Below are positions 2,273 through 33,500 of a stretch of DNA of 64,000 nt, one piece after another. Numbering within the stretch: position 1 is the stretch's first letter; the number at the start of each line of letters is the position of its first letter. The notes beneath the pieces were generated by a model. It had not been told where the DNA came from. It was given only the letters and a program-made list of their open reading frames with translations, and made no database searches. The translations under genes were made by a program, and so were the position numbers. The stretch comes from Lingula anatina (lineage: Eukaryota; Animalia; Brachiopoda): NCBI GenBank assembly GCA_051362555.1, contig CM120640.1, forward strand, positions 11,346,001 to 11,410,000, in the 5' to 3' direction.

Positions 2273-5200
2273 TTACCCCTGTTTTCCTTTACTTAGACAC
2301 TTTTGCAGTTTGTCTTTTAATTCACTTGGAGAAAAGACTCCAAACTCTGTCACAATCCCTCCTGTCACCAGCTCATGTGGTGTGACATCGAAGGCTGGGT
2401 TCCAGCAACCTATTCCTGGAACAGAAAGGGAAAATGGTGACTTTATACAAAACACATGATTAATTAATACAAATCTACTGCAGATACATTTTTCCCTTAA
2501 ATAATTAAGATAACCTGGTGAGACATAATATTTCACCAAAAATGACATTTATGTTTATCATCTTTTTATATCAACTTTGTTAGCATATCATACAGCAGTT
2601 GACAATGTTTTTTAAGTAAATTTTTAAGTACTGGTAGTTCAAAACCTTATCAATATTATAACACCGTCATTCTAGATAAATCCGAGTACATAAATTACCC
2701 AACTAAATATGAGCAAAAAAAAAAAAAAAGATTTAAGTAGTTGGAAATATCTAAAAAATTTAATCCTTTTAATCTGAGATGTAAGCTTGAACATCATATT
2801 GAATTCGTAATTTTGTCCAGGGTTTAAGGAAGTGACCTGTTTTCCTGTGAGACACCAAGACATTTTTGTGAGTCACATAAAATGCAATACCTTAAAAGGT
2901 CGTATACTGAAACAACTGAGGTGTGTAGAATTAATTAGAAATTACTCTACATACCTTGTGCAGCAATTCTCTGTCCCTTAACAGTGAACATTTCATTGTG
3001 TGGACGCTCTTCAATCTTGATCTCATCCCCCGTCTGCAAGTTCAGATCAATAGATGTGCTTGGGGCAGCCACATAGAAGGGAATTTCATGATATTTAGCA
3101 CATATGGCCAGTTGATAAGTCCCTATTTTATTGGCCACATCACCATTTGCTACAATTCTATCTGCACCAAGAATAATGGCACTGACTCCTTTCTTTTTGA
3201 TGAGAAAAGCAGCCATGCTGTCACAGACAAGAGTGGCTGGCATTTTGTCATGGACTAACTCATAGGCTGTTAGTCTGGACCCTTGGTTGTATGGTCTGGT
3301 TTCTGTGCAGTAGACATGGTCAATTTTGTTTTGTTCAAATAGGGCACGTATGACACCTGCAGAAAAAGGAAATTATGTCATGAAATCATTCATAAAAATA
3401 CAATAAACATCACTGTTTTTTTTCTTCAGATATGTCAAGATGCTGTAAACTTCTTGATTTCATTTTTTAAAAACAACATATTTAAAATTAAAACTCATGG
3501 AAAGACTTTCAAAAAGCCAAGAAAGCTAGCTTAGAAAAGAATGATATAAGATAAAATAAGTGAATTATGAATTGCCAAAACGTGCCAAGTTGTTGCCAAA
3601 TAATTTTATATAGAACTCACCAAGAGCTGTTCCATATCCTGCTGTGGCCAGAGAACCTGTATTACAATGGGTCAGTATCCGTAATGGCTTGTCTCCAATA
3701 TTTTGTAACATGTGGGCACTACCATGCCGTCCAATTGATTTGTTATCCTCCACATCTTTCCTCAACATTTCTTCTGCTGCTTCTATGATCCTATGATAAA
3801 AAAGGATAGATTTCCTTAAACACAGGACATTTTTTATTCAAAGGGTTTTTTTCTAATAGCTGGTGCAATTTGGTGCATTACAGATTACTAGTTTGAGACT
3901 CTGGAACATGACTCCTTGCTCCCTTTTGGAAAGGAACTGCAACAAAATCAACAATTTAATTTAGGAAAATTAGTATTTAACACTGAAGTCACAATCAGGC
4001 AGTTCCTTCATCTTTTTTACCTCAATTTCATGTCCTCTGCCCCTAACTTCTGATCAAGGTATGTTGTGCAGAATTGTTTGAACTTTATGGCAGAATCTGA
4101 AATGTTGACAGCAGTTGGCCTTGCAGTGACCAGGTAGTTCATCCTCTCTAACACCCAGGAAACCAGTTCATCAGGAGTTTGAAAATTCTTTTGGTGTAAT
4201 TCAGTAGCAAGGCTCAGTGAGGCCACAACACCAATGGCTGGAGCTCCACGAATCTAACAAAATTTTAAAAGGGAAAGTGTAAAATTAAAATATATATGAT
4301 ATAGATATAGATAAAAATTTGTTTTCTTGGAAACAAAAAAAAAATCCTGTAAATTTCAGTGATTTTCTGTTTTAACATTTTGGTTTACCTTATTCAAAAC
4401 TGCTGAGAAAATAGGAATATATAGACCCGTTTTAAAGGTATAATTTTTTTTTGTTCCCATCACTAGTTAACTTTACTAGTCTCAAGCTCCATTAGTTGAG
4501 TGACTCAAAAACTAGAAACTAGAACTCTAAATCAAGTTTACGGGTTGTGATTCTCTAGGAAAACAACCAAAAATATACATGTGGATATATTCTCAGCTTT
4601 TAGTTTTACTTATTGCTGCAGCAAGACTTCGGCTATCTCAGGTGATTCCTATCATTCTAATAGTGTCCCAGTATAAGGACCCTGAATAATATGAGGCAGG
4701 CAAGTAGATGAAATGTTGTTTGGGCTATTTTATCAGGGAATCATATTGTAGACTAGACAGGATACAATTTCCTGATTTTATTCAGGAATCATGAGTCGAT
4801 TTTTTTTCAAGATGTTTCTAGGTAATACCACTGTGATGTAAAACTAAGCATTCTTTTAAAATTTTCACTGGTTTAAAGATATTGTCACCCTTCGCCCAAA
4901 ACTCGTTTACTGCATTACAATATATATTAGATCTTTAAGAGGTCATATACTGAAATAACTGAGGTAACAGATAAATAATAAATTAATTAACATTTACATA
5001 TATGTCATCTTTATGTCATAGTTGCGCTATTTGAGTAAAAACAAAAAAATTGGTTTCTCAAATTTCTCTTTTAACTGAGCAACCACAATCACCATTTCAA
5101 CCCTATTTAATGACACCGTTTAGTACTTCGACACCCTGCCAGTGATTGTTCTTTAAAGTCTTAGTTCTGATTTTATTGTTCATAAAGAAAAATAATGCCT

Positions 5201-7501: not shown

Positions 7502-7659
7502 GTCCTGATGCGGGCCTGTATTCAAAACCAATGCATTAAAAAGGCCCGCCTCTAATAACAATTTTAAAATCCAATCACATAAAAAACTGAAAATTTTAGC
7601 TCGTCAGTTAAAATATTAAAATTAAGTTTTTCTTTATTTAAGTTAGGCCTACAAGCAGA

Positions 7660-8386
7660 ACTTTCATTACTTCTAAGCTTGATTATTGCAACAGTCTCTT
7701 ATATGGTTTAGGCAAAAATCATCTGAACAAACTTCAATTAATTCAAAATTCTGCAGCTAGGCTGGTAACTAAAATGGGATGGAATAGCCGAGAGCATATA
7801 ACACCTGTTTTGATGGAACTTCACTGGCTTCCAGTAAGAGAGAGAATTTTATTTAAAATTTTATGTGTCATTTTTAAAGCAGTCACTGAGAATAAACCAC
7901 TTTATATCTCAGAACTTATGAAGCAACATCAGCATGGAAGAGTTACCAGGTCTTCAACTTTTAGTCATTTACTTTTAGAACACAGTGTCTTAGAGAAAAA
8001 AGCTGGTAAATTTTACGGTGAAAGGGCATTTATGATATATGCACCCAAAGTTTGGAACACTTTACCCTCTGAAATACGAGCAGCAGGTGACATAGATACT
8101 TTTAAAAAGCTTTTGAAAACTCATATTTTTAGAATAGCCTATCAGTAGCTATCATATAGTTAATTTTAGTTTTTAATAAGGTGTACTGTAATTTTATGAT
8201 TAATTTTAAATGTTGTCACTTTAGGTTCTTATCATTTTAGAATATGAATAATTGGTTCTTTAAATTAGTTCTTAGTCCTTTAAAATTGTAATGTGTTCTT
8301 ATATTAGTATTGTGTTATTTAGCTCTTTTAAGTGAATGTTGTAAGGCGCATTGAGATTTTTAATGGAATGCGCCATAGAAAAATAA

Positions 8387-14016: not shown

Positions 14017-17000
14017 ATGGCTGTTGTACGAAACAAGGACTGGATTCTTGAGACAATTGATCAACTGCGAAAACGCAAAGCTCGGCCAGACATTGAGAGA
14101 ATTTGTCACATGTTGCAAAGAAAACATGGTCTGACGAGGGAAGAAATAGAAGCTGACCTTGAGAGCTTGGTAGAGGCAGAGGTGGTTATAAAAGTCGATT
14201 ATAAAGGCAGTACCAGCTATCGAAACGCAGCCAAATGGAGAAAAAGTCACTTAGGCGGACTGGTGTTAAATTCAACAGAAGTTAGCAAGAGAATCGTTAA
14301 CGCGCTACGCGCCTTAACAAAAACCGAGTCGTTACCCGATTCTGAAACACAAACGTGTAACATCAATAATAGCAGCAGCATAGGGGTCAGCCTGAGTGAG
14401 ATTGAAAAATGGATTGCAAACGAAGACCCAGAATCAACTCTGGTGAAAGCGAATCTCCAGGTTGCTTTGGACCGTGAGGTGGACGCGGGCCAAATCGCAA
14501 GGCTCAACGACAACACCTACGTGCTATCTGACAACAAGAAACCTAAAGCGCATAACCCGACTAAAATTGGAGGGCCAGGAAAGGGCGGGCTACATCATGG
14601 AAAACGCGGCCGTCCGGCCACCAAAAAGCCGGTGTGTATAAAACGGACTCATTGAAATGACTCACAAGCTCAAGCGCATATTTATCTAGGCGACATTTTG
14701 CACTTATCTCAATGCGTGCGTGATAAGCTGGCGCGATCATATACAGAGCGTGGCAGTCTGTTTTTCCCCCGTCTCCATTGCGCGAAGATTTCATTGCGCT
14801 CGCTGTATTTCAATTTATCATACACCTTCAGTTTACGGGTATGCGTTTCACTGCACAGAGGTTATATGTGGTAGAACTGGTAGTGGGGGCAGCACTTGGC
14901 TCATATCTGTTATATAGCTTTCTTAAATAACCAGCGCATTTCTGACTCTAAATCTCTGTCATGTTTCTGTGTATTTTGGTCCAATTAACGCAATGGTCCA
15001 TGGAAATCTGCTAAGAAGGCTACAGTGTTCTTAGAAAGAAAACTAGCGCGTTAGGTATTGTACTTTCTAAAACTATTCCCCACCCACTTAACAACTTAGG
15101 AAAAATACACACTGATAAAAGAATGCTGAAGGGAACGCGCACAATGAATATATATATATAGAGCCCGTTCCACTCCATATAACCACATATAAATTGCGAC
15201 TTCACATGCGTTAGTTCCATGAAAACGATGGTATGTGGGTATATTCTCTAAGGCTATCTAACGTGATGCCTCTCGCTCAATTCCCTGTTCGAATATACCG
15301 TGAAAACGTTTTTATACGGGATCTACGTGTGATTCTTGTTCAAATTTATAAATGTCGGGTAAAGTTATAGGTCTGCGGAATTAATAATTCATGACCAAGT
15401 CATACTGTGTTAATGTAATCGTATTTGCTTTAACTGGATATGGTGGCGCGTTCCATTGCGCGCGGAGAGATAGATCGGAACGAGTGATGTTGGTTGGCCA
15501 AACGTATTGGATATCGATAAAACAGCCAGTGCATTGTTAATAATGACTAGAGGTTCGAGGAAGATAAGTCAGTTAGTTTTGAAAAAAAAAAGCATCCAGG
15601 ATGTTCTGTAAATTTTTCTTTTTCGATTGCGCTCTCATATTGAACATCTTGACTTTGATACGTGTCTGTGTAATATGCACCGAGAAACGGGCAATTTACG
15701 CACCGGAGCCGCAATGACCTGAGCTGGTGCGTAAACTCGCCGTAACGATAACCGTAAGACGATCAAGAGCAGTACAGCGCATATAAATAACCCTTTCCCC
15801 TCTGACTGCATGTAAGGCGGTGTGCTATACAGCGCTCAGTATATGCTGGCATGCCGCGCCTGTACTTTACGTAGTGTTCGCAAATAATATTTATATAACA
15901 CCTTTATAGATATCAAGCACACCTCACAATGCCCAGTTACTATAGCTCACAGTCGGCGCGTTCTCGGGTGACTTCGTGAGCATTAAATTGTTTTCGGTAA
16001 TCACCGTGCGGTGAAAAGGGCTCGCCTTTATTTAGTTACCGACATGTATACGTGAAAACCCGTTTGGGAATACTTCAATGACCGTCCTCTATATCAGGAT
16101 GAAAGGTCGGTTACACAGCAGAGTGTAGCCGCCTCTTTTTTCACTACTGCTGTGGCGATGTGCCAAGGTGAATTTATCTATAATGATGGTTGAAAATGTT
16201 GATTGAGATGGGGTTGTATTTTGACTTAAGTTTTTAATTTGCGTGTCAGGCAAGCGTGCCAAGGAGTTTTATACAGATTTGTTGAAAGTTGTACTGAATT
16301 CCTGTAGATGAAATATATCGATCAAATTGTGATAAAATACGTAGTAAAACGATGTGGCGGATGAAACCACTTTTAGCTTCTTTCAACCCGAGAGATCTAC
16401 AGTTTGCTGCCTTGTCTCAAATAGATAAGCATTTTTGGACTCCTACTGAGTCGGCAGTACGGGTATTTATATGACGTGAAATAACTATTTCTGTTGGGGA
16501 GCCATTATTACACTACCTTTCATCCGCATAATTTATTCAAACTCTGTGACGCTATACATGTATTTAATCACTTCACTTTGACATTTGTATTTACTATGAG
16601 GACATCAACTCGTATCCGACGTATTGGCTGGCTAATAATACCACACTACGGCATGACTTGATAATTATTCCAGCTCTGGTCGCAAGGGGTTTACCGCTTA
16701 AACCTCCTGCATTCGTGACTTTTAACACATGCCATTGTGCGAGCGTGATAGAATCTCCAACATATAAAATTGCAGGTTTTGTCGAAAAAGGGGCCTACAG
16801 GGAAAGACATGGGGTTATCTAAATCCTCGCCATATCATAAAATTAAAAAAAAATTGTATGCGGCCTGGATAGCAAAGAAACGGTTTTATCGGTACCTGTA
16901 TTTTTGGGGTCTATACCACATGCACGTTGAAGTCACTAAATGTTTTACCAGCTGTTAATATATCTGAAAATTTCATGGAAGTGGCGTGCAGCGGAAAATG

Positions 17001-20000
17001 TGTGCGAGATAGTAAGATACCTGTCAACGATGGCGAAATCCTCCGTGTGTGTTTCCAATTCAGTATCGATCTTCGCAATCCGCCTTAGTACATTTTCAGG
17101 CAATTTATCTTGGGCTTCTGTACCTAGTAACTGTCATTATTGAAAAAAAAGCATTTAGAGAGCATTCTAGGCATCGAAGCACTGTTCAACTCGGGTAAAA
17201 TAAAACAGCAATGAAGATGCACTGCATATATACTTGACAATTTTAGGTGTATTTGTACTGAAAATATTCAAAGAAATATGGAATTTAAGATAACTAATAT
17301 CATAAATTATGGATGATGGGAGCCAATACTAAGCAAGTTTTTTTTGCAAGTTGACAATAAGAAAAGGCTTCTACCTGTGTACACAGAGAATTAAAATATA
17401 AGTGCGAATTACAAAATATTTTCCCGTAGGATTGTCAGAGTTGGGGTTTTTGTCAGTAGGTACGTGTAAATGGAAATCTAACGCCCAGCTAAGGATCATC
17501 TGGTATGATCAACTAAGATGCTATGAACGTCATACAATCATCGAGGTCTTTGCTTCTAGATGTCCTCTATTTTCACTTAACTATTCACCATATAAATCGT
17601 CTTCGGTCTTGTCTGGTCTTCGATAGCCTGCAACTACCATTATATTAAAACTTGGAGAAGAGATATACTCTAAATGTTACAACTGCGTTTTACGCATTTT
17701 CAGAACGCTAAATCATCTTGTTGGGAAAAGAATTCACATAAACAGCCATCACTTAACTGCTTTTGAAAATACAAAATTGGACTGCGATCTTTACTATGAT
17801 ATCCCCCTTCTACACAAATGAAAATATAGTCTACCAGATCAAAAGTCTAATTCTCAAAGTGAAACGATACTTGATTCATTAGCCGACTGATTGATGGTGA
17901 TTCCCTTGCCTGTAAGTGTTAAATGATGTTGTATTATCATCTTTGCAGATTCTAAAGAAGAAACATCTCCTGGAACCCCAAGGAGTGAAATCTGAAGAAC
18001 GCGCACTCTCTCATGAGGAGCCAGTCCCGAAGCGTGCGATGAAAGTATGCGACTTCTGTCTCCTCACCGAAACGTTTAATAGAAAAGGAGTACCAGAGAA
18101 CCTGTTGGTTTGTAAAGACTGCAACGCGAAAGGTTTGTGGATCTGTCATATTTTAAAAGAATAAAAGAAAGAGATAGATGAAAAAGTGCGGCCGTTACAA
18201 TATTTTACTCATTTTGTGATAAAAAACGCAGTAAATGTCGATCGTTAATGTCAATATATATATATATTCAATATATAGGCCTACTCCATCTTTGATTTTA
18301 TATTCATTTTTGGTAATGAGACCTAAACAAAACTGCTCAACTGTATAAATTTTATGTATTGTCCATGGTATGTTTGATTGGTTTGACTGTTGCTGTTGAA
18401 ATCAAAGAATAATAAAAAAAAGTAATAGATAGTAATTTACATGAAATATTGAGCGAAACCTGCACAGAAATTAGCATTTTTGGGGAAAATTTTGTACGCA
18501 CAGTGCGACCTTGGATACTTTAGTACTGTATAAACTGTGCTGTGCACCGGTCCGACTTTTTCAGTCGTTACGGCAACGAAATGTAAATTATCCAGCTTAA
18601 TGCCGAACATTTTATATGCTGTAACATTAAATTGCGGTCATTAAACACTTCACGTCTAAACATGTATTTGATAAGTTGTTGAAAAAGTGTCTTTGGAAAA
18701 AAGTTACCTTGCATGATTTAAGCACAGCACCGAAGCATTCCCAGAAATAGATCTCTATACGGTGAACACTATTAAGCGTCCATTCACCCTTTATAAATGT
18801 GACGTTACTATGTCATATCAAGTGTCAGTATTACATTCCAAGGCAATCTCGCTTTTTAGCTAGTGATAGCAATTATGTCTTTACAATTATTATGGTTTCA
18901 CGACATCTTTCTCCAGCCCATCCATCATGTATGGAATACTCGGCAGAGCTGGCAAGGCGGGCAACACGCTCCCCGTGGCAGTGCATTGACTGCAAGACCT
19001 GCAATATCTGCGAAGATGCCGGAGATCCTGTAAGACTTTTTTAGTGCTTCTTGAAAATATTTATTTCGCGTAGAATGCCATCTTTGAGTTTTGTTGTACA
19101 TGTAGTCAACTCGTTTTAGTGTGGTAAGGGTAGGAGCATTTTTTTGTTTTGTGGGGTAAAAAAAAGAAGAGTGGGTGGTAAAATATGCCACCAGAAGCAT
19201 TTTTCAGTCTAAACCATCACTTGAAGTGTATTGTATGAATAAAATTCATAAGAAAATAAGCGCAGTTCAAAAACGCTCAAACACCGATTAATACAAAGAT
19301 TCGTATTGAAAACGTTTATAGCTGAAAAAAGGTGCACTGGGGCGGTATGAATCATGTCGACATTGACTATACCCGATTCGAAACAGAAAAAGAAAACAAG
19401 TATCCGGAAGTAGGATAAAACTATTTTTTGAAAGAAGACAAAAACAACACTTGAAATGAATGGCCACGCGTGATTCAATGAAAAGTGTGCAGAGTGCGAA
19501 CTCACAAATATTCATCACTGTTCAGGAATTTATATGTACGATGCATAAAAAAAAAAAGACTTATCACTAAGTAATGTTGTTTTAATGCACTCGTGAGGAA
19601 TTTTTGTGGTCTTCGTTACGTCAGTTATTGATTTTCATGCAAAACTAAGGAAATATAAAAAAGTTAAATATATTTTGCCTGTAATGGGGTCTGTGCATTT
19701 GTTTTGTCGGGAGTCAGACATTCCTCTGTTTGAAAGATTATATTGATTGGAAAGCCTTGGTCATAAAACCGCTTCTGATTTTGTGAGGAGAAATCGTACA
19801 GAGCAGTTACTATCAAGGCAATTTTTTAATTAGTACTTTTATTTAAGTTTAATTTTGTAATTTTGTTCATTCACGTAACTTTCATTTTAATAAAGAACTT
19901 TGAAATGTGAGATCGCACACCAAACTTTCCTGTCTACAGTTCGCCTACTTTAACTTTACTTATGGATGTGGTTGCCAGTTAAGATAATTGAGACACGGAA

Positions 20001-22165
20001 GAGCCTTTAAAGTATCGTTTACATAGTTATTTTTTGTCACGAGAATATTGTTTTTCATTTATGCCAAGCTAAAGATGTCCTAATTTCTATTTAAGCAATA
20101 TTGTCGTTGAGGCACCAACCGTCACGTCCGTATATGACAAAGATACATCTGTCTGCTATATATTATAATTTTTATCTTTGGGTTTTGGCATGCTTTCCTG
20201 GCAAAGAAAAATCAATAATTAGTTGAGATTCGCACCTATAGATTACATCGATCTCTGATTTTTTTTCTTCGATTTTACGAATCCATAATCTAATTTTACA
20301 TATTGATGAAACGCTCGAGATAGGATACAAATCGAGTTATATCATGTATAGAGGCGTTTGGAAGGGTATAGTTAATTTATAAAGAGATGCACTGGTGAAA
20401 GCAATACGGCATTCGGCGCTGCAAGGCGTCAGCAGCATATGAAATCGATAAAAATTGTTATTGAGCGTGTCTTGCTAAAATTGGATTTTCTTATATGATG
20501 CTCTTCGATTTGCTTTGACTTTTTTATTTGTCTGTCAAATTTGTTACCGGCTCTGACATCGTCTATCGTTTAAAAAATTTAAAAAGAAAGTTTCCAACGG
20601 AATGATTTTTCTGATTTTTTTTCACTTTTGTTCTAGGACGCTATGCTATTCTGCGACGCTTGTGACAAAGGATACCACATGGACTGTCACAACCCCCTTG
20701 TCGCAGAGAAACCTACAGGTGAGGAGTATCAAAGCGTGACCCACGTGCCCTAGACCACTTCTATTAAAACTAAAATCAACGAGTGATACAAGGGTGGCTC
20801 TCGGGCAGCCTGATCCCCGCGAAGTATGATCTAATTTGATAATGTAATAAGTCAACCCTATCGATGTTGCTCCCCGGGGCAATGTGCGTATATTCTGTGG
20901 AATTATATCTTTTGTGCTGAGTTTATTTTCTCAGTCATAGATTTATATTGTTGACTTTATGGATTTTGTCATATCAACAAAAAGCACGATTGGGAAAAAG
21001 AGTTTGTCAATAATATAGTGTATAATACATGTACCATAAATATAATCTTATCTCCGTTTTCCGTTAAATTTGTCGCAAGGCATAGGCAATTTTCATGGGA
21101 TTTTCGTTGTTTAACCTTAGTCTCCCCGTTTTCATCGCAGATAGCTTGCAACTATGTGCAATGGCACCCTTTTGAAATGATTTTTATACTGATACCCCTC
21201 CTTCAGTATTGCATATCTTCGCATAGTTAAAATGAAAGGAATGCCTTTATATTTAACCAGTTACTCGACTTAAGCCTAATAATGGTTTTTTACTATTTTT
21301 GGTCTGGTGAAGATTTAAGGCCGTGATAATGCTTACTTCAACCTATAATATGAAATATTGTCTCCTCAAATGCCGTTGCCTGAACTAAATTCGTCGTCAG
21401 TGTATGGCAACGATTTCAACCTGCAATTACATTTCCTTATGTCTAAATATTATTTTCATGTTTAACAGTTCTATGTACATACATCTGATATTTTACAGGG
21501 AAATGGATGTGTAGCCGCTGTTTACTGGAGGGGTCGCAGGTCAGTGTATCTGCCATGGAAGAAAGCGAAATGGCTAGCGTGGACAGTCATCGCGGTGCGT
21601 TCTTGAAATGTTTTGAGAATTTTTGCCTATTTGCGTACCTAGAGAAAGCGATTTATAAGTAGTACGTTCAACATTAAATAAAATGCCTATGTGAAAGAAA
21701 AATATTGTAATCTGTCGAATAAATAAATTTTGGTGTACGTTTGAGGTTTAATATCTTATTTGAAAAGTTGAAAACGTTTTACAATAATGAACTTAAAGAA
21801 CTGAGAAGTGAATTTGATAGCATTTTATGCATATTTATTTATATTTTCGTACCATGAAAACGTGTTTTCCAACGGCCCCTAAAGAAGGGGGGGGGGTGGA
21901 AGTATACACCATCAAAACACGACTAAATCTAAATACATAGGTGCTATCTTATTTTCAACTTTGTTTTTTGATTTTTTCTTTCGCGTTGCCAGGTAGCAGA
22001 CTGAAGGATGGCATAGCTTGTCTTCCCACTCCCAGTGACTCCCCAGTTCATTCAAACGAAGAATCAAGTGACAAAAGGTACAGTTATATTGATCCTGAAA
22101 TGGCAGATCCAGGGGCACCACGTGCCCCCTCTCATTAGGTTGGGAGAAACCCTCCCCACCCCACC

Positions 22166-22221
<56 letters not shown>

Positions 22222-23354
22222 CGAGCGTTACGCTCAAAACCAACAGGCCCGTAGCCAGGGGGGTTCGGGGGCTCGAAAGAATCCCCCTTTTTGCTGGAAA
22301 AAGGTCCACTCTGGGTAAAATTTGACCTAGGTACATGGGAATTATATGGTAAAAGGTCCACTTTTTCAGAAAAAGACCCCCCCCCCTTTGAAATTGCTGG
22401 CTACGGTCCTGACCAAGCAATATTTCCACCCGCTGTGCCTTACATGTTATGGTCAAATTGTCCTCGTCTACCGTTTCATATTCGCTGATCGAATAAAGCT
22501 ATACTTGGGTACCTCTACCGTCGACATGCCGTGGGTCTGCATGTGTAACAGTGTTCGTGTGTTATTTACGTACGGTACTGTTATCAGGTGTTAATCTCGA
22601 TGCCATAATACAGACGTGTTAAAACTGGTATTTAGATAATCTCTATTTCGTGAAAGCCTCTGTTTATTTATCATTGTCACAAACATATTAAACCTAACAT
22701 AGATAAATTTTAACTGTCATTACTTGGTTAGAAAATTATGACCTTCGACAGAATTAAAATTTTATGAAACCGGTATGTTAAACATTAAATATGTTCGATA
22801 CGATCTGGAAGTCCTAATGGAAGTGTTTCGTTAATATATTTGACAGTGAAGATGACAATATCCTGTTAAGTATGGCAATCAAAAACTATTACTTTTCTTT
22901 GCAGCCCTTTTTTTATTTCAACCAAGTCGCCGTTGAAACCAAAACAGGAGATTCCTGACGCTTCAAGATGGGGAGTGGACGAAGTGGTCACATATTTCAA
23001 GGAATCGGGATTTTTAGAACAAGCAGAAGCATTTAGGGAGCAGGTAGTTACACTGCTTTTTGTAAATATTACCCCCCAAAACTCATGTTTGAATTTTTAT
23101 ACTTTGCTTATATTTCATGTCTGTCTTCCGCTTGCTAAAAGTGAAATCTCGGGTTGATATTTTCCAGCAATGTTTAACTTACCGATGTGTATTTATTCGT
23201 TTTTATTATTATGTAGGAGATAGATGGAATATCTCTGATGTTGATGAAGCGCTCCGATGTTTTGAGCGGGCTCGCACTGAAACTTGGACCAGCGCTGAAG
23301 ATGTACAATTACGTGAAACAGCTGCAGTGTAGAGGGCAACCGCCGCTTCAGTAA
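14017..23354 (+). CDS. SAMD1/atherin-like chromatin reader: winged helix 1 + H15-like winged helix 2 + AT-hook-like + double PHD finger + SAM; 8 exons, 483 aa
   Basis: Exons 14017-14631, 17949-18132, 18917-19029, 20637-20718, 21499-21594, 21993-22077, 22905-23043, 23217-23354; GT-AG, phase-consistent, 1452 nt. Motifs: [22 protein letters not shown]...YKGSTSYRN (SAMD1/KAT6 WH); KRGRP; CDFC...CKDC...HPSC...[12 protein letters not shown]...[18 protein letters not shown]...GKWMCSRC (DPF); [10 protein letters not shown]...[34 protein letters not shown] (SAM). Confidence 0.92.
22244..22411. mobile_element. hAT-like MITE (CAGGCCCGTAGCC family) in intron 6 of the SAMD1-like gene
   Basis: TIRs caggcccgtagccag / ctggctacggtcctg; 5-bp duplication accaa. 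Relatives at about 40141-40288 and 47398-47530 (partial). Preceded by an A run at 22171-22216. Confidence 0.75.
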
Positions 23355-25652
23355 AAATACATTTTGCACTTTGTGGAATGATTCCGATCTGTTAACAGAC
23401 TCTACACAACGCTTCAGACCCAGTTGAAACATGACGACAGACTTGAAGAAAACGATTCCGTTGGTTCTATTATACTACAAAAAATGCAGCGGCTACATTG
23501 GTTCAATGACAACCTATTAACGTATTTTCAAAGAGAGCACCTTATCCTGGATTCTTATTTTCAATTCATATTCATCTTTCATCTACCCTAATTTTCGTTT
23601 ATATAATCATATGCTTTGATCTGTTTTTGAATAATAAATCAGAAATTTGCCCGCATTTCATATATATGGCATGAGTTTAGATTTTAACAAAAATTATCTT
23701 GTTATGGCATGCGTATACTGAGAAGAGTAGGTCACAATACACTCAGAAAGTGAGAGTGCTTATCATGGATTCTTTCCCTAGGTGAGGTCATTAGTAAGAA
23801 AATGTCCATCATCCATAATTATTGATCCTTTGGCTTTTTTTAGTTGATTTATTCGAAATTTTATTATTAGTATAGTTCATATTTCGCTTTGCTTATCGGT
23901 GTATTGGTGATATTTAACTACTAAACATCGTCCAGTTACTGCAAAGTTATTAAAATGTATTGGTTTGTATGTTTTTCAAATGAAAATGGAACCTGTTGTT
24001 TCAATCGTGTAGGAATCAACGCCGATGCATTGGAGGAGCTAGAAGACTCATCTAGCACAACCAACCACATAGCCAATACAAATCGTTATCTTTTGGTCCC
24101 ATCATAGCATTGTGCATGATGGGACCAAGATGTAACTTATCTTTATACGTTTAATCTCAGAAGAACATGCGATTATTATAATTTAGTAATTTTATTGGGC
24201 ATTAAATAAGTTAATATTTGTGGGGTCTCTTAAATATTGTCTATATCCAATGTGGATCGAAAAAAGGCATAAATAGCATTTTATTGCATAAAATAAGAAA
24301 GATATTAGATAAGCAAATGGAATTGTGCACAACAATAGTACATTTATTCAATTATCTATAATTTCTAACCATGGGAACACAAACTACTGTTTGTTAATGT
24401 TAATAAGGAAAGGTTGGTATATAATCCTAATCACACAATCTGCTGAGATAGTACGCATCAACTTAACACTTCACAACTGAAGTAGAGCCATGATCGTTCT
24501 TTATTCGAAATTCTTTATCTTATAAAATATATTCATGCATAATCAGAAATTTTATTCGTTTATTGTATACGCACATGGTAGTAAGCTCCAAATGTAGTTA
24601 TAGGCTCATCTTCGACAGGTGAAAACATAAATGCCTAGTGTCTACAATAAATTTTTCTCTTTTGTCTTAATATAAAAAAATATTAACAAAAGAATGTTTC
24701 GTGCAAAGAATGTGCTATTTAAAAGCGAAGTTGTTGATCGGCTTTTGGCTATTTGCTAGATCTTTTCAGTTTTGTGCCCTCGCGCCTAATTTTACCTTAT
24801 CTACGACTAATTTCTCATGTGGCGCTAACTTGCATGGATTGTAATTGGCCTATATTCCAGTATTTGCTTCGTTATCAATATACACAATTAGTTTTGGGTA
24901 GCAACAGTGGCAATCAATTAATAAATGGGAAACCATATGGCATCATTCATCGGGACTCAGTTCTGACAGTTTCAATGAAAATATCAAATTGACTTTTACG
25001 AGACAATTGATCTTAGTAATGAGTTAATATCATTGTGACTCTTCGGCATCGAAACTCAATCAGTTTTCTATTGCTCAGTTCCGATGCTTCTTATGCGTAC
25101 TTTGTAATTACCTCAATTTTTCGGCTTCGTTCAATGGAAAATACAACAAAGACATTGTAATTACGGATACAGTTTATTGTAATAAACACTTACAAGTCAT
25201 TTATTTGCTTATGTTTTTCTTTACCTCTTGTTTGAGGAGTTAAAGTTATTTGATTACTCAGCTTAGTTAAAAGATGGCGCAAGTCCAAGGATAAAGCCCA
25301 AGCTTAGCAATAGCCGACTGATATTTACTTTCAAAGGTAAAAATGATTTTTGCCAAGAAACGCTTTATTTAAATATATTTTGATATTAGTCAAAAAGGTT
25401 TCATTTATGCTAGATCCTGAAATTTGATTTACCTGTTGACTGTTTCGTCTGTTCACTCTGACAGACTTGGTCACATCTAGCATAAATGAAACCTTTTTGA
25501 CTATCAAAACTAAGATCCAATGAAACTATTTTCACATATATTTTGATATTATTTCCATAATAAGATAATATTAACCAAATCTGTACTCTCTCCCCTAAAA
25601 CGTTTATTGTAAAAACGTTATTGTAAAGCGCACTCGGGCGTAGAGTAGTGCC

Positions 25653-26565: not shown

Positions 26566-27786
26566 TTACAGAACAGTTTGCAGCATGGGTTTAGATGTGT
26601 CCACGCCTGTGCTCATTGACACCCTACGCCGCGCGATATTCAGATCACCGTCGTCCATCCGCAAATGTTCTTCTTGAGTCGGGTGGTGACTATAGCTGAT
26701 GACATCCTTCGGAGGAAGAGGGCGGTTCTTTCTGCAGCAAAGAGACGAAAACAATCGCAATAGTTCTTTTCGAAATCTGGTCCCAACGAAGCAGTAGATG
26801 ACAAAGTTGAAACAACTTCCAAGTACTGTGAGGGATGTAGCGGCGATATTCAACTTGTCCATCAGGGTACCTTCTTGCAACGAGTTCTTCAGCTTGCAAG
26901 GCTCGTCATTTGTTACGAAAAAATATACCTGCCAAGCGCATTTTGGGAGGTTGGTGATTACGTACAGGCTTACTATCGATATGAGAAGGATAGTTAGATT
27001 TCTACTCACTGTGCGTCGAGAGGGCATCTCACTCCAGATTTTTGTGGTCTGTTTTATGTGTCTGATGAGCAAGCCGTTTAATACAGTAAGCAGGAGCCAA
27101 GGGATGATAAGCCAGACAATAGGGATTATGAAAGCGTGCAGAGCACAATGATACCCTTCAAAAGCATCCAGTGGCTTGCTAAGCAGTACGACTGGCGGGT
27201 CTGATGCGTTTTTGTTCCAAAACGGATACGTGATGAATTTCAAGTCTATCATGAGAAATTCTGGCAATATGGTCAGCAGCACTCCCAAAACTATCGTCGT
27301 AATCACTAAATAACATATTTTCTTGTTGGAGTACCGTTTCATTTCCAGCGGGTACTTAATCACTAAGAAACGTTCAACTGTTAACGCCAGGGTTATAAAG
27401 TATGACGTTCCTTGCGCTATCAGGTAGAGAGGTTCCATGAAAGTCTCGGAAACCGTGTCCAGAGTTAATCTGGTTTTAATGATGTCTTTGGGGTCATCGC
27501 TATAATAGGTCTTGTACGTGCCGTATGCAAACACCGACGTGACTGTCACACCGAGATCTGCAATGGAAAGCGCACGCAGGTAGATGATGTACGTAGTTGT
27601 TGCCGTCCCACGGATTGATCGTCTGCTAAGAACGATCAGATTTAAGATGTTTCCGATGAAACCGAATGACACGCCGACCAACAGAATGCCCCCATACCAA
27701 ATGTGAGAGTACAAAGTGCTGTATTCATTGCTGTGCCTGCTGACATTTCTTGTAAAGTTTTGTAGAGTTACATTGATATCAAGCAT
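26566..27786 (-). CDS. Rhodopsin-class peptide GPCR, FMRFamide/sex-peptide-receptor-like; intronless CDS, 406 aa
   Basis: Seven hydrophobic segments; N-glycosylation sequons NVT/NFT/NVS; GFIGNILNLIVL, YLRALSIADL, ALTVERFLVIKYP, IPW, NLP, NFVIY...FR. The real ATG is at 27786, just after an acceptor ttttttacag (27798-27797), implying a 5' UTR intron. Confidence 0.93.
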   Translation of the reverse strand: MLDINVTLQNFTRNVSRHSNEYSTLYSHIWYGGILLVGVSFGFIGNILNLIVLSRRSIRGTATTTYIIYLRALSIADLGVTVTSVFAYGTYKTYYSDDPKDIIKTRLTLDTVSETFMEPLYLIAQGTSYFITLALTVERFLVIKYPLEMKRYSNKKICYLVITTIVLGVLLTILPEFLMIDLKFITYPFWNKNASDPPVVLLSKPLDAFEGYHCALHAFIIPIVWLIIPWLLLTVLNGLLIRHIKQTTKIWSEMPSRRTVSRNLTILLISIVSLYVITNLPKCAWQVYFFVTNDEPCKLKNSLQEGTLMDKLNIAATSLTVLGSCFNFVIYCFVGTRFRKELLRLFSSLCCRKNRPLPPKDVISYSHHPTQEEHLRMDDGDLNIARRRVSMSTGVDTSKPMLQTVL

Positions 27787-28922
27787 ATTTTCAGTTCTGT
27801 AAAAAACAAACGTCAAAGTCGATATGCACCATTCCTTGCTTTACAATGAATTCTGAAGCCGTTTGGTCCGATGCTTAACTTCAGCAATGAAAGTTTACTT
27901 GGTTAATCAAATTTGCTGAACAATAAAATCAATCCTTTTTTGTGATGTGTGACTTCAGATAACGTTTACATGATACTGATGTGATTCGCAGTAAAATCCG
28001 ATCTTATATATGTATCTGAGACAAAAAGATTTCATGTGAGGGCGTAATTACATTAGAATTAATGAGAGCAGAATTTCGTGAGTAATCGCTGGAAAGTACA
28101 AGCTCCAAGAAACCAACTTATAATTACTTTCTTATCACGTCAGCCTAAGAAGATAATCTACCAATGGCTTTGTGTCAGATTACAGCGATCCTTCAGAAAC
28201 CGTTACAAAGAAAATGGCTGGCCACCGTTTTAATAGTCAAAACCAATATGTTGTCACATTTCGCGGAAAAGACATTTCAGTTGCGAGGAAACAAGCTTGA
28301 ACTCCCCATCTTTATTGGAAAAGTTGCTAATGAAGTGTTAATATTAAAAGATAAGGCTTGGAACACACCGTAATTAACAGAATGAGACAGCAATAAAGTG
28401 AACCAAAACGGCACAAATACAGGAGAGAAGACGGATGCGGAAAACTTGAATATGATGGCAATTAAAAAAAAAAAAAATAAAAAAATAAATATATATATAT
28501 ATATATATTTTTTTTTTTTACTCTGCTTTTATATATATATATATATATATAAAAGCAGAGTAAGGGACAGTTTATCTTGTATTTCGGGGAAAAACAAAGC
28601 AAGAACAAAGGTTAGCCTTTAGTAAAGCTTTAACATAGGTTTTTATTAGCCTATCGCTCAGTTGAATTTTTTCTGCACATATCAGAAGGGCATTTCGCCA
28701 AGTATAGGCCTACCTTTATCATGTGAGTAAAAAAAAAATCCTCAAGGAGCTACGATGAGAACCTACATTCATTCATTGGAGAGGTATACTTGAATAAGAT
28801 TCAATTTAGTGGCTCTTGGTGGTTTTTGTGGCAGACTTAGTTTTGACTGAAAGATACGTTCGATTCCTTTGCTGCGGCACAATTCCCAATATTCCACTTA
28901 AATCACTATATACATGTACACG

Positions 28923-30563: not shown

Positions 30564-33500
30564 TCAAACCAAATTTGTTCTACTCCTTCTCCTATTCAAT
30601 AAGGTTCTCAAGTCAAACATCATTTTTGGCTCCCTGGTCCAAGCACATTCATTCTCTGCTGCAACGTCTTTTAAGCTGTCTTCTGCAAAACCACTGGGAG
30701 GCTGAAACTGTAAACCCCTGTTAACACAAGCTCCTGTCTCTGGATATAACTGACAATTTCCATTATTCTGCCATCCTGATTCCTGCTGCCAAAATGGGCC
30801 TGTACATCCACCACGAACTGGGTCACTACGAGCATGCAAGTCACCTCCATAGCCACTATTCTGATCTCCTTCCAAAGGAACTGGATTGCAATAAGGGCCC
30901 TGGTTCCATGTGCCACTTTGTGCTGCTGGGTTATGGATGTCTCTCCCATAATTGTGCATGCCTTGGTTTTCTTGAGGGGGGTTAATATTGCAGTGATACC
31001 CTTGCTGCCTCCACTCCTGATAGTTAAAGTTCTCATTACAGCCCCCTTGCCTGTTTAAGTTGTGAGATGGAAAGTTGCCACAGTGTGGATTCCATTCCTC
31101 TTTGTAGCCCTGTTCCTGATTCCACCCCTGTGATGGAACATTTCTGCCATAACCTTCTTGATTCCATCCCTGGTTTGGGGCACTACAACTTCCCTCTTGC
31201 CAACTCCAATCCTGGGGTGGACAGTGTCCATTGTACCCCCCTTGCTGATTCCAATTTGGTGGCAAGTGTTTATCATAACCACCTTGTTGGCCATTCCACT
31301 GCTGTTGTGGGCAGCTTGCCATATAATCTGGATCCTGTGGTGGTCCTGACCATTGCCTCTCTTCATACGAATGCTGGGTAAATGGGCCGTGATGAAATTC
31401 CCCATTGACTTGTTGGCAGTCCATCTGCCACTGCATCCTACCACTGTTAAAATGCCTGTGCTTAGGGTTGACATGCACAGTCTTGCGTTTCTTGACAGCT
31501 GCTACATTGTAACTTTTCTTAACAAACAACTTCCTTTTTAATGCTGTACCAGTGGAAGGTTTAACAGTCTCAATATTGTTCCCGTCTAGAATCTTGAGTG
31601 GAATTTTCCTGGACTGTTTGGTGTTGTCTTGTTGTACTTGGGACATGGGCTTCACATCCACAGTGTTTTCACTGCTGCAGACTTCTTTTTCTGCAGATTT
31701 TACTTTTATGACAGTCAGCTGAGAGGCCTCCTCTGTGGGAGTTTTAGCCATGTCATCAACAGGTACTTCTGATTCATGAACATCAGCTGACATTTGAGGT
31801 TTACACCGAGTTTCAACTATAACAATATCACTGTCACTGACTTGGCCATTCATGCCCATTTCTTCCTTACTTTTCCTGCCAGATGCCCCAGTCTCTGGTT
31901 CTGTGTCTGCATTTGAAGCCTCTTTACTCTCTGAACCAGATGTGCTGTTGGGAATACTACTGGCTATTACACTGCTTTCTTGAAGTTCCCTTGATGGAAT
32001 ATCATCTTCATGGACTGCCTTCATGACAAGGTCATTCTCTTGGGAAGTCTGGGAAATGTTCTCACTTTCTTGGATTGTTGTTATAGCACTTTCACTATCT
32101 TGGGATATATTTGTTAGATCTATAATCTCTTCAGTTATTTTTACATCACTCTCACCCTCTGATGTAGACTCTGCAGTATCTTTACGGACTTCAGTTGCCT
32201 TTGCAGCATTTTCACACTCTTGGCTCATCTTAGCATTTTCACTTTGTTGGACTACCTCCTTTGTAGCACTAACACTCTCCTCTTCAGTAGTTTCATTTGA
32301 AGATTTCATGGCATTCCCGTTGGCATCACTTTTGTTGTTGTTGCTAACTTTACATGATGCTTCATTGGAAACTTGTTTCCCACTGGTAGATGGTACTTTG
32401 CTCCTCTCAACTGACAAAGGTTTCTGGAAACTGAACCGTGGTACACTGATATTGTTGTCAAGGTCAAGCCCAGGCGCATACAAGGTTCCATACCCAATAT
32501 ACCTATCAGCTAAGCTGTCTGTGGTGTAGGAACGGCAATGCCTAAGCTGTGAGGGTTGAAGACCTAAAATTCTGTGAGATGGTGCCATAAAGTGCCACCT
32601 TTGACTGAGCTTTGTTAGATATATGTTGGTTATACGTCTGTGGGCGATCTCATTCCAGTGCACTCCATCAGGGGCCCTCAGGTGAACATGTTGTGTGAAC
32701 AGTTCACACATATCTAAAACACTGTACCCATGGAAGAGAGCCTCTAGCCTTGCACAGTGGTTACCTGCAGTGATGTCAAGGTGGAGGTTGCATGGGTTGT
32801 ATGGATTGAATGCCTTTGAGGGTTCAAGAAAGCCACCTCGTGGTTTCTTATTCACTGGCAAAGTGGACATCCACATGAACAAACTTGAAGGGGAGAGCAC
32901 CAAGTTCAGGTGGTCAAACAACCGTCTGATGTTAGTGCGATAAGCTGGTATTGCATTGGAACCATAGCTGTGAAAAAAAAGAAAATTTCAGGAAATAAAG
33001 AAAGAAACAAACCATAAACAAGCTTTTAATTTCAAATTTTCTCACCAGTTTAATGAATGTAAAAACTTAATAAAATCATAAACCCAGTACATGTCACATG
33101 AATTACAAATCTGGTTCTTAACCCAGGGTTAATCAAACTAGATTACGTAAACTGACCATAGAAATGGAATCAGCAACAGAAGTTCAAAATGCACTTGCTT
33201 GACAGTTAACATAACCTGTAATATATTTAACTTATTTGTATTGCCATGAATTCAATCTCTATACCTTGTCATGTCCCATATGCAGGAGCTCATGATGATC
33301 ACATCTGGTTTCATCTGCTCCAGGTCTTCTAGGACTTGTTGCACATAGTCATCATAGCACCTCACAATGAAGTAATATGTCACCATCACGTTGTGACCAT
33401 GGTACCTGCGGACCTCTCTGTATTTTGTACTATTCACCATCTCACCCAGGCAGCCTCCCATCAGAAGCTCATCACCCAAAAAGGTTTTCTCTCCCTGTAA

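What the first reader, a model, noticed from the sequence alone, without database searches (positions are those of the whole stretch)
14017..23354. WH1-WH2-double PHD-SAM protein: a KAT6 reader module on a SAMD1 polymerisation domain, with no acetyltransferase
Seen: the 483-aa model has a SAMD1/KAT6-type winged helix (RKRKARPD...YKGSTSYRN), a second H15-like winged helix ([10 protein letters not shown]...[14 protein letters not shown]), KRGRP, a complete DPF-type double PHD and a C-terminal atherin-type SAM. Established: vertebrate KAT6A/B have WH1-WH2-DPF-MYST, SAMD1 has WH+SAM without PHDs, WH1 binds unmethylated CpG, and DPF reads acylated H3K14. Inference: this is an intermediate or ancestral architecture that could read unmethylated CpG plus H3 acylation and polymerise through SAM. 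Automated pipelines would probably mislabel it 'KAT6-like acetyltransferase'.
Basis: partly seen in the sequence, partly recalled or inferred. Interest (0 to 1): 0.8.

Follow-up and report, generated by a model that had tools for sequence, protein, structure and literature searches.

The report
Brachiopod SAMD1/Lint-O repressor mislabelled as KAT6
This is a real, spliced eight-exon animal gene for a chromatin protein with no acetyltransferase domain that databases label KAT6; the same design occurs from corals to amphioxus, and it is likely the four-domain form of human SAMD1 and fly Lint-O, predicted to bind unmethylated CpG DNA and recruit the L(3)mbt repressor.

Summary
RNA reads support all 7 introns (8 exons, not 8 junctions) and give exactly 483 aa. 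WH1, WH2, double PHD (DPF) and SAM are all present, and there is no MYST domain. The design is not a one-off: 177 of 348 retrieved proteins have it, from corals to amphioxus. In the WH1 tree the family groups with vertebrate SAMD1 and apart from KAT6 (100/100). Eight insect members are database-named Lint-O, the fly SAM-dependent L(3)mbt co-repressor. WH1 keeps 8 of 9 SAMD1 DNA contacts, and SAM keeps 14 of 14 polymer contacts. Reading of H3K14 acylation is therefore doubtful. My searches found no paper that links Lint-O to SAMD1. The fly sequence itself was not retrieved. The scan noted this family twice before on other genomes. Verdict: new member of a known kind.

The parts
14017..14631 (+). 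Exon 1 coding part (aa 1-205): WH1, WH2, basic linker
   Evidence: identical to database protein P0001 over 205 aa
14038..14226 (+). WH1, SAMD1-type winged helix (aa 8-70); predicted unmethylated-CpG reader, 8 of 9 SAMD1 DNA contacts kept (R56 is His31)
   Evidence: PF21524 E 1e-31; 83 bits to SAMD1 6LUI against 45 to KAT6A 7Y43; residue list from PMC8115922, census
14266..14532 (+). WH2, H15-like winged helix (aa 84-172), homologous to KAT6 WH2 but with most DNA-binding basic residues lost
   Evidence: hhalign 97%; fold; charge and residue census
14602..14616 (+). KRGRP basic motif (aa 196-200); AT-hook-like or nuclear-import role is recalled and untested
   Evidence: a similar motif recurs in arthropod members
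17949..18132 (+). Exon 2 (aa 206-266): linker and first half of PHD1
   Evidence: RNA joints
18917..19029 (+). Exon 3 (aa 267-304): rest of PHD1 and start of PHD2; the Ala267 codon (MOZ G237 position) is split by intron 2
   Evidence: RNA joints
20637..20718 (+). Exon 4 (aa 305-331): PHD2 core with the acidic H3R2 residues C310, D311, D314
21499..21594 (+). Exon 5 (aa 332-363): end of PHD2, start of disordered linker
21993..22077 (+). Exon 6 (aa 364-391): linker with a conserved TPxxSP motif at 22025-22045; absent from database model P0001
   Evidence: 13 and 17 junction reads; motif census
22905..23043 (+). Exon 7 (aa 392-438): first half of SAM
23217..23354 (+). Exon 8 coding part (aa 439-483 and stop): second half of SAMD1-type SAM with the ML/EH interface residues
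23355..24900 (+). Probable 3' UTR (read cover runs on unspliced to about 24.9 kb; the end is not mapped)
   Evidence: depth tables

Best explanation
This transcribed gene encodes a 483-aa WH1-WH2-DPF-SAM protein without an acetyltransferase domain, likely the brachiopod orthologue of vertebrate SAMD1 and fly Lint-O, and predicted to act as a non-enzymatic co-repressor scaffold. Shown here: the gene structure, the four domains, the family's range and its separation from KAT6. Inferred steps: (1) WH1 binds unmethylated CpG in accessible DNA, as SAMD1 WH does. (2) The SAM domain self-associates head-to-tail, giving multivalent binding, and its EH face binds the SAM of an L(3)mbt/L3MBTL-type protein, which brings repression. 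(3) The DPF holds the unmethylated H3 N-terminus through the PHD2 acidic pocket, while the K14-acyl pocket is made shallower by Gly-to-Ala, so acylation probably adds little or prefers short acyl groups. (4) WH2 keeps its fold but probably not KAT6-like nucleosome-dyad binding. Vertebrate SAMD1 would be the reduced form: DPF lost, with WH2 kept in some fish as Pfam SAMD1_SHD.
For: WH1 tree of 74 rows: 32 invertebrate members plus 4 vertebrate SAMD1 on one side of a 100/100 branch, 38 KAT6 on the other. DPF tree of 51 rows: the family is one side, 100/100. SAM is closest to SAMD1 among solved structures. All 14 SAMD1 homopolymer contacts named in PMC8115922 are identical, and 6 of 7 L3MBTL3 contacts named in PMC11969672 (R508 is Lys). 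8 of 9 WH DNA contacts are identical. Anchovy Samd1b still has WH2 (E 7e-8 in a 12-sequence search; SAMD1_SHD E 2e-20), and fish SAMD1 shares the pre-SAM TPxxSP motif. Eight insect hits are named Lint-O and about ten invertebrate hits SAMD1/atherin. Fly Lint-O has two PHDs and a C-terminal SAM, binds L(3)mbt SAM-to-SAM and needs this to repress vasa and aub (PMC9535798), paralleling SAMD1-L3MBTL3. True KAT6 exists beside the family in Mya, Mercenaria, Anneissia, Lycorma and Ambystoma. 0 of 363 proteins carry both SAM and MYST. The window shows CpG mosaicism (o/e 1.0 over this gene, 0.15-0.4 over neighbours), so methylation status can be discriminated.
Against: No binding or repression data exist for this protein; every functional step is transferred from SAMD1, KAT6 or Lint-O. 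The Drosophila Lint-O sequence was not among the hits shown (120 of 906 listed). The Lint-O link therefore rests on NCBI names and the paper's description, and the paper mentions no winged helix. In a smaller quick tree the invertebrates formed their own branch (95), with vertebrate SAMD1 outside it, so old paralogy is not excluded. No SAM tree with SAMD13 was possible. Ala at the pocket position also occurs in 3 of 48 KAT6, and 11 other pocket or H3-binding positions are identical or conservative, so acyl reading may survive. Zebrafish Samd1 proteins, which lack the mammalian PA-rich region, bind mammalian chromatin poorly and form no fibres (PMC11969672); this protein has no such region. An L3MBT partner and a KAT6 were not shown in this genome (none held). 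This organism has a second paralogue (P0002), so functions may be divided.
Confidence: 0.8

Rival explanations
1. One reading: a dual reader of unmethylated CpG and acylated H3K14 with an intact KAT6-like DPF, which marks or buffers active promoters and polymerises through SAM.
For: DPF is 47-48% identical to MOZ DPF. F211, W257, C259, I260, C281, D282 and D285 are kept, and S210 is Asp as in DPF1-3. Ala is small, and 3 of 48 KAT6 also carry it.
Against: Two reviews call G237 the critical pocket-forming residue. Gly occurs in 41 of 48 KAT6 and 68 of 73 DPF-only proteins but in 1 of 201 family members (Ala 170, Val 22). L242 is Met and N235 is Ala here. Fly Lint-O with eight PHD cysteines mutated still represses.
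Confidence: 0.25
2. The invertebrate family and vertebrate SAMD1 are old paralogues that share WH and SAM types, each lost in the other lineage, so vertebrate function may not transfer.
For: In the 25-row quick WH1 tree the 11 invertebrate rows were one side (95) with vertebrates outside. Only 6 vertebrate SAMD1 proteins were sampled.
Against: In the larger careful tree vertebrate SAMD1 lies inside the family. The distributions are complementary in what was retrieved: none of the 6 vertebrate proteins has a DPF, and amphioxus has the four-domain form. WH2 and the TPxxSP motif persist in fish SAMD1.
Confidence: 0.1
3. A truncated or mis-assembled KAT6 gene, or two neighbouring genes merged by the model.
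For: The database name is KAT6B. Short reads do not span the whole transcript.
Against: Seven consecutive junctions are read-supported. No MYST was found in the window. 177 of 348 proteins share the architecture. AU test rejects WH1 grouping with KAT6.
Confidence: 0.02

Closest known systems
Vertebrate SAMD1 (atherin), Stielow et al. 2021 (PMC8115922); SAMD1-L3MBTL3 structure paper 2025 (PMC11969672)
   Same: SAMD1-type WH (8 of 9 DNA contacts), SAMD1-type SAM (14 of 14 homopolymer contacts, 6 of 7 L3MBTL3 contacts), same WH1 tree branch, no catalytic domain.
   Different: Adds a complete DPF and a clear WH2; has no Pro/Ala-rich region; sits in an invertebrate genome with mosaic methylation rather than CpG islands.
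Drosophila Lint-O (CG2662), Yamamoto-Matsuda et al. 2022 (PMC9535798)
   Same: Two PHD fingers followed by a C-terminal SAM, similar size (446 aa against 483); insect proteins named Lint-O fall inside this family and carry WH1.
   Different: The paper describes no winged helix and names SAMD13, not SAMD1, as a doubtful human orthologue. Insect DPFs have lost the PHD2 acidic residue D282 that this protein keeps. The fly sequence was not compared directly.
KAT6A/KAT6B/Enok N-terminal cassette (PMC9881136, PMC9908889)
   Same: WH1-WH2-DPF in the same order; all three domains are homologous.
   Different: No MYST domain; SAM instead. WH1 has SAMD1 residues (R45, Y87) where KAT6 has Gln and Asn. 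WH2 core net charge median is -1 against +9. The DPF pocket has Ala for Gly.
DPF1/2/3 (d4) and PHF10 double PHD fingers
   Same: DPF fold, Asp at the S210 position as in DPF1-3.
   Different: Separate branch; no BAF-type N-terminus; pocket Gly absent.

Membership tests
SAMD1 / Lint-O family | SAMD1-like winged helix (PF21524) with the CpG-contact residues | tested here: met
   E 1e-31; 8 of 9 contacts identical, R56 is His
SAMD1 / Lint-O family | C-terminal SAMD1-type SAM with ML and EH interface residues | tested here: met
   71.5 bits to 6LUK against 39 to L3MBTL3; 14 of 14 and 6 of 7 contacts
SAMD1 / Lint-O family | Groups with vertebrate SAMD1, apart from KAT6 | tested here: met
   100/100; 100. 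Position of the vertebrates within or beside the invertebrates differs between the two trees
SAMD1 / Lint-O family | Direct orthology to D. melanogaster CG2662 | tested here: inconclusive
   Eight insect proteins named Lint-O belong to the family (three of them in the tree); the fly protein was not among the hits shown
SAMD1 / Lint-O family | Binds unmethylated CpG, binds L3MBT through SAM, represses transcription | not testable with these tools
   needs binding and reporter assays
KAT6 (MOZ/MORF/Enok) acetyltransferases | MYST acetyltransferase domain after the DPF | tested here: not met
   The transcript runs from DPF to SAM and a stop; no MYST in the window
KAT6 (MOZ/MORF/Enok) acetyltransferases | WH1-WH2-DPF cassette | tested here: met
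KAT6 (MOZ/MORF/Enok) acetyltransferases | WH1 falls in the KAT6 branch | tested here: not met
   AU p 1.2e-5
KAT6 (MOZ/MORF/Enok) acetyltransferases | Basic DNA-binding patch on WH2 (K127, K131, R151, R153, K157, R158 of MORF) | tested here: not met
   2 of 6 basic here; family median 2 (n 64), KAT6 median 4 (n 37)
Acyl-lysine-reading DPF domains | Two intact Cys4-His-Cys3 PHD fingers with the H3R2/K4 acidic residues | tested here: met
   zinc ligands nearly all invariant in 69 aligned members; C310, D311, D314, D291
Acyl-lysine-reading DPF domains | Pocket-forming glycine (MOZ G237) | tested here: not met
   Ala267; Gly in 1 of 201 family members
Acyl-lysine-reading DPF domains | Measured preference for H3K14ac/cr | not testable with these tools
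   needs peptide binding

The most novel reading that the evidence does not exclude
SAMD1/Lint-O is KAT6's repressive twin: a pre-bilaterian duplicate of the WH1-WH2-DPF promoter-targeting cassette that carries a polymerising, L(3)mbt-binding SAM instead of the acetyltransferase, has its acyl-lysine pocket and nucleosome-binding patch disabled, and so competes with KAT6 at unmethylated, unacylated promoters. The SAMD1-L3MBTL3 and Lint-O-L(3)mbt complexes are one ancient module that silences germline genes in soma and predates vertebrate CpG islands.
Probability: 0.3. Interest if true: 0.65.

Novelty: new member of a known kind. Interest (0 to 1): 0.4.

Why it matters
The Lint-O paper asks whether humans have a Lint-O orthologue and leaves it open, and the SAMD1 passages I read follow the protein back only to fish. 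Placing both in one family with a four-domain ancestral form joins two literatures: fly brain-tumour and germline-gene repression, and mammalian CpG-island repression. It predicts an overlooked DNA-binding winged helix in insect Lint-O and suggests that readers of unmethylated CpG predate CpG islands. The family-wide Gly-to-Ala change gives a one-residue test of how DPF pockets select acyl marks. In practice, many invertebrate proteins annotated as KAT6 acetyltransferases are not enzymes, which can distort counts of histone modifiers. As a locus, this gene is an ordinary member of the family.

Tried and rejected
No whole genome is held, so a separate KAT6 and an L3MBT gene in this organism were not shown; none appeared among the hits. 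A possible 30-nt micro-exon at 17430-17459 was considered and rejected: it gives a stop in the needed frame and has no reads. The database model P0001, with an extended exon 5 and no exon 6, has no listed junction reads and loses a conserved motif. Pfam scans of single exons miss PHD1 and SAM because introns split them. The Foldseek search with WH2 alone gave no match at E 0.001 or better; the wide search gave only a generic winged-helix fold. Retrieval of fly Lint-O failed (no dipteran among the 120 rows shown). No SAM tree was built because no SAMD13 or L3MBT sequences were held. No sponge, placozoan or ctenophore member was seen, but the searches were capped and many records are unnamed, so the direction of the KAT6/SAMD1 duplication is unresolved; the trees are unrooted. 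The DPF tree left out insects, Daphnia, flatworms and five other members as long branches or near-redundant rows, and used 16 of 73 DPF-only and 17 of 48 KAT6 proteins. The run search listed no RNA holder by index; runs came by species label. No complex prediction was run, since a SAM-SAM pass would only echo solved structures. The ESM Atlas query returned only the same family under automatic names. A look-up of earlier findings by sequence returned nothing.
Full report
Observation. RNA reads from eight runs of three studies, labelled as the same species, were laid on the locus (6-30% of each run read). They give seven GT-AG introns, with 6, 13, 16, 18, 13, 17 and 19 reads. The first junction was seen in only two runs of one study. 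Joined, the eight exons give a 483-aa frame ending at 23354. Depth is low (mostly under 10 reads per base). A database protein identical over exon 1 is labelled 'histone acetyltransferase KAT6B [Lingula anatina]' (P0001). Its model replaces aa 365-392 with a read-through of intron 5; no reads for that joint were listed.

Anatomy. WH1 (aa 8-70) matches PF21524 at E 1e-31 and scores 83 bits against SAMD1 WH and 45 against KAT6A WH1. The DPF (aa 236-342) matches MOZ DPF at E 4e-32. The SAM matches SAMD1 SAM at 71.5 bits, then L3MBTL3 at 39. WH2 (aa 84-172) is below Pfam cut-offs, but a profile of 64 family members aligns to a profile of 37 KAT6 WH2 regions at 97% probability (10 shuffled controls at most 0.25%), and it models as a winged helix. 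The AlphaFold model of P0001 shows four confident domains on flexible linkers (pLDDT 78, pTM 0.37), and Foldseek returns MOZ/DPF3 DPFs, SAMD1 SAM and SAMD1 WH. No MYST sequence was found in the window.

Family. Of 348 proteins from four searches, 177 have WH1-WH2-DPF-SAM. None of 363 has both SAM and MYST. These searches were seeded with the family or with a placozoan KAT6 N-terminus, so the fraction is not an abundance. Named members come from corals and anemones (Montipora, Exaiptasia), molluscs, annelids, a nemertean, flatworms, chelicerates, a myriapod, Daphnia, insects, echinoderms, hemichordates and amphioxus. Thirty of the 116 hits are named KAT6 without a MYST family. Eight insect members are named Lint-O, and about ten invertebrate members SAMD1 or atherin. 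Mya, Mercenaria, Anneissia, Lycorma and Ambystoma each have a true MYST-bearing KAT6 as well.

Trees. In a WH1 tree of 74 rows (77 columns; the bootstrap had not fully settled), 32 invertebrate members and 4 vertebrate SAMD1 lie on one side of a long 100/100 branch, 38 KAT6 on the other, with the vertebrates inside the family. A 25-row quick tree keeps that split but puts the vertebrates beside the invertebrates. AU tests reject this protein's WH1 with KAT6 (p 1.2e-5) and vertebrate SAMD1 with vertebrate KAT6 (p 8e-4). In a DPF tree of 51 rows the 18 family rows, cnidarians included, are one side at 100/100 (insects, Daphnia, flatworms and five others left out). The cassette is thus homologous to KAT6's but has been separate since before the cnidarian-bilaterian split. 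The trees are unrooted, so which gene gave rise to which is open. Anchovy Samd1b retains WH2, which identifies Pfam SAMD1_SHD as the WH2 remnant (inference). A TPxxSP motif before the SAM is in 41 of 94, 37 of 93 and 0 of 14 members of three groups (shuffled means 0.2, 0.8, 0.1) and in 3 of 6 vertebrate SAMD1 records, from two fish species.

Functional residues. WH1: of nine SAMD1 DNA contacts in PMC8115922 (section 7 read), eight are identical and R56 is His31. R45 and K46 are kept in 190 of 193 members. SAM: all 14 homopolymer contacts (section 12 read) are identical, as are 6 of 7 L3MBTL3 contacts from PMC11969672 (passages), with R508 as Lys. DPF: the MOZ pocket and H3R2/K4 residues were taken from passages of PMC7797077, PMC7800603 and PMC9329655 and mapped through. 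The acidic H3-tail residues are kept (C310, D311, D314, D291). G237, which the two reviews call the key pocket residue, is Ala267: Gly in 1 of 201 family DPFs (Ala 170, Val 22; near-duplicates included), 41 of 48 KAT6 and 68 of 73 DPF-only proteins. Three KAT6 also have Ala, so this lowers but does not exclude acyl reading. WH2: of six MORF basic residues needed for DNA (passages of PMC9908889), two are basic here; medians are 2 for the family and 4 for KAT6. An almost invariant Glu (61 of 64) follows R158. Core net charge is -1 against +9 (related sequences, so the p-value is not meaningful).

Mechanism. Shown: gene, transcript junctions, domains, family placement. Inferred from SAMD1: WH1 binds unmethylated CpG; SAM oligomerises and binds an L3MBT SAM. 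Inferred from Lint-O: the complex represses targets such as germline genes. In PMC9535798 (abstract, section 10, passages and a term search of five supplements), Lint-O has two PHDs and a SAM at aa 372-436 of 446. SAM deletion abolishes L(3)mbt binding and repression. Mutating eight PHD cysteines does not, while PHD deletion loses L(3)mbt binding. CG2662 also co-purifies with Sfmbt (one passage). Inferred from residues: the DPF anchors on an unmethylated H3 tail with little acyl preference, and WH2 is not a KAT6-like dyad binder. The window's CpG o/e is about 1.0 over this gene and 0.15-0.4 over neighbouring genes, the pattern expected of mosaic gene-body methylation (established knowledge; no methylome was seen).

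Literature. Searches: SAMD1 + winged helix + PHD + invertebrate gave 0 papers. Lint-O gave 9 listed; CG2662 gave 20 of 32 listed, mostly methylation-probe matches. SAMD1 + SAMD13 + L3MBTL3 gave 2; SAMD1 + invertebrates 3, unrelated by listing; SAMD1 + Drosophila + PHD fingers 1. The Lint-O paper has no 'winged' and its five 'SAMD1' matches are SAMD13. Passages of PMC9881136, PMC8175269, PMC11969672 and PMC12153100 did not describe an invertebrate WH-DPF-SAM protein. The library lacks most subscription papers, figures were not visible, and supplements of the SAMD1 and KAT6 papers were not read; they may hold such alignments. Database names already point both ways. Two earlier notes of this scan reached the same family on other genomes (seen after my analysis).

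Verdict. Real gene and correct architecture; an ordinary member of a widespread animal family whose fly and human members are characterised. What seems not to be in print is the Lint-O = SAMD1 link, the four-domain ancestral form, and the blunted acyl pocket and WH2 patch. Novelty: new member of a known kind. Interest 0.4.

Noticed in passing
   Followed up: yes
window 22025-22045: The conserved L/P-T-P-x-x-S-P motif, shared with fish SAMD1, resembles the Myc T58/S62 GSK3-FBXW7 phosphodegron (resemblance recalled, untested).
   Followed up: partly
P0002: A second paralogue in the same labelled species (512 aa; WH1 88%, WH2 38%, DPF 69%, SAM 67% identical). Bivalve and nemertean duplicates also occur.
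   Followed up: partly
window 14223-14247: Three synonymous differences at depth 6-12 in runs that otherwise cover exon 1 about once; possibly reads of the paralogue, which would then be the more expressed copy in those samples.
   Followed up: no
window 22244-22411: A 168-bp MITE-like element in intron 6: 15-bp terminal inverted repeats (14 of 15 matching) and a 5-bp direct repeat on each side (read). Hundreds of RNA reads from other copies end at these boundaries.
   Followed up: partly
window 25387-25503: A second small element with perfect 29-nt inverted arms 59 nt apart, also drawing multi-copy RNA reads.
   Followed up: no
window 6000-30000 against the rest: CpG o/e is about 0.75-1.1 over this gene and its flanks but 0.1-0.7 elsewhere: the gene itself appears to lie in an unmethylated domain.
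   Followed up: partly
window 2276-4253 (-): Multi-exon gene of the IF-2B family (PF01008); looks like methylthioribose-1-phosphate isomerase (recalled).
   Followed up: no
window 26569-27840 (-): Single-exon rhodopsin-type GPCR (7TM_GPCR_Srw, 7tm_1), convergent with the gene.
   Followed up: no
window 30567-32987 (-) and 53314-54138 (+): Two large exons sharing a DGVHW motif, no Pfam hit; resemble PC-esterase domain proteins (recalled).
   Followed up: no
window 7642-8145 (+): ORF that looks like the C-terminal part of a LINE retrotransposon (recalled; no Pfam hit).
   Followed up: no
insect family members; P0359: Insect DPFs have lost D282 and I260/E261, in line with PHD cysteines being dispensable in Lint-O. 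The Clytia member has DPF-SAM but no WH1 or WH2 hit.
   Followed up: partly
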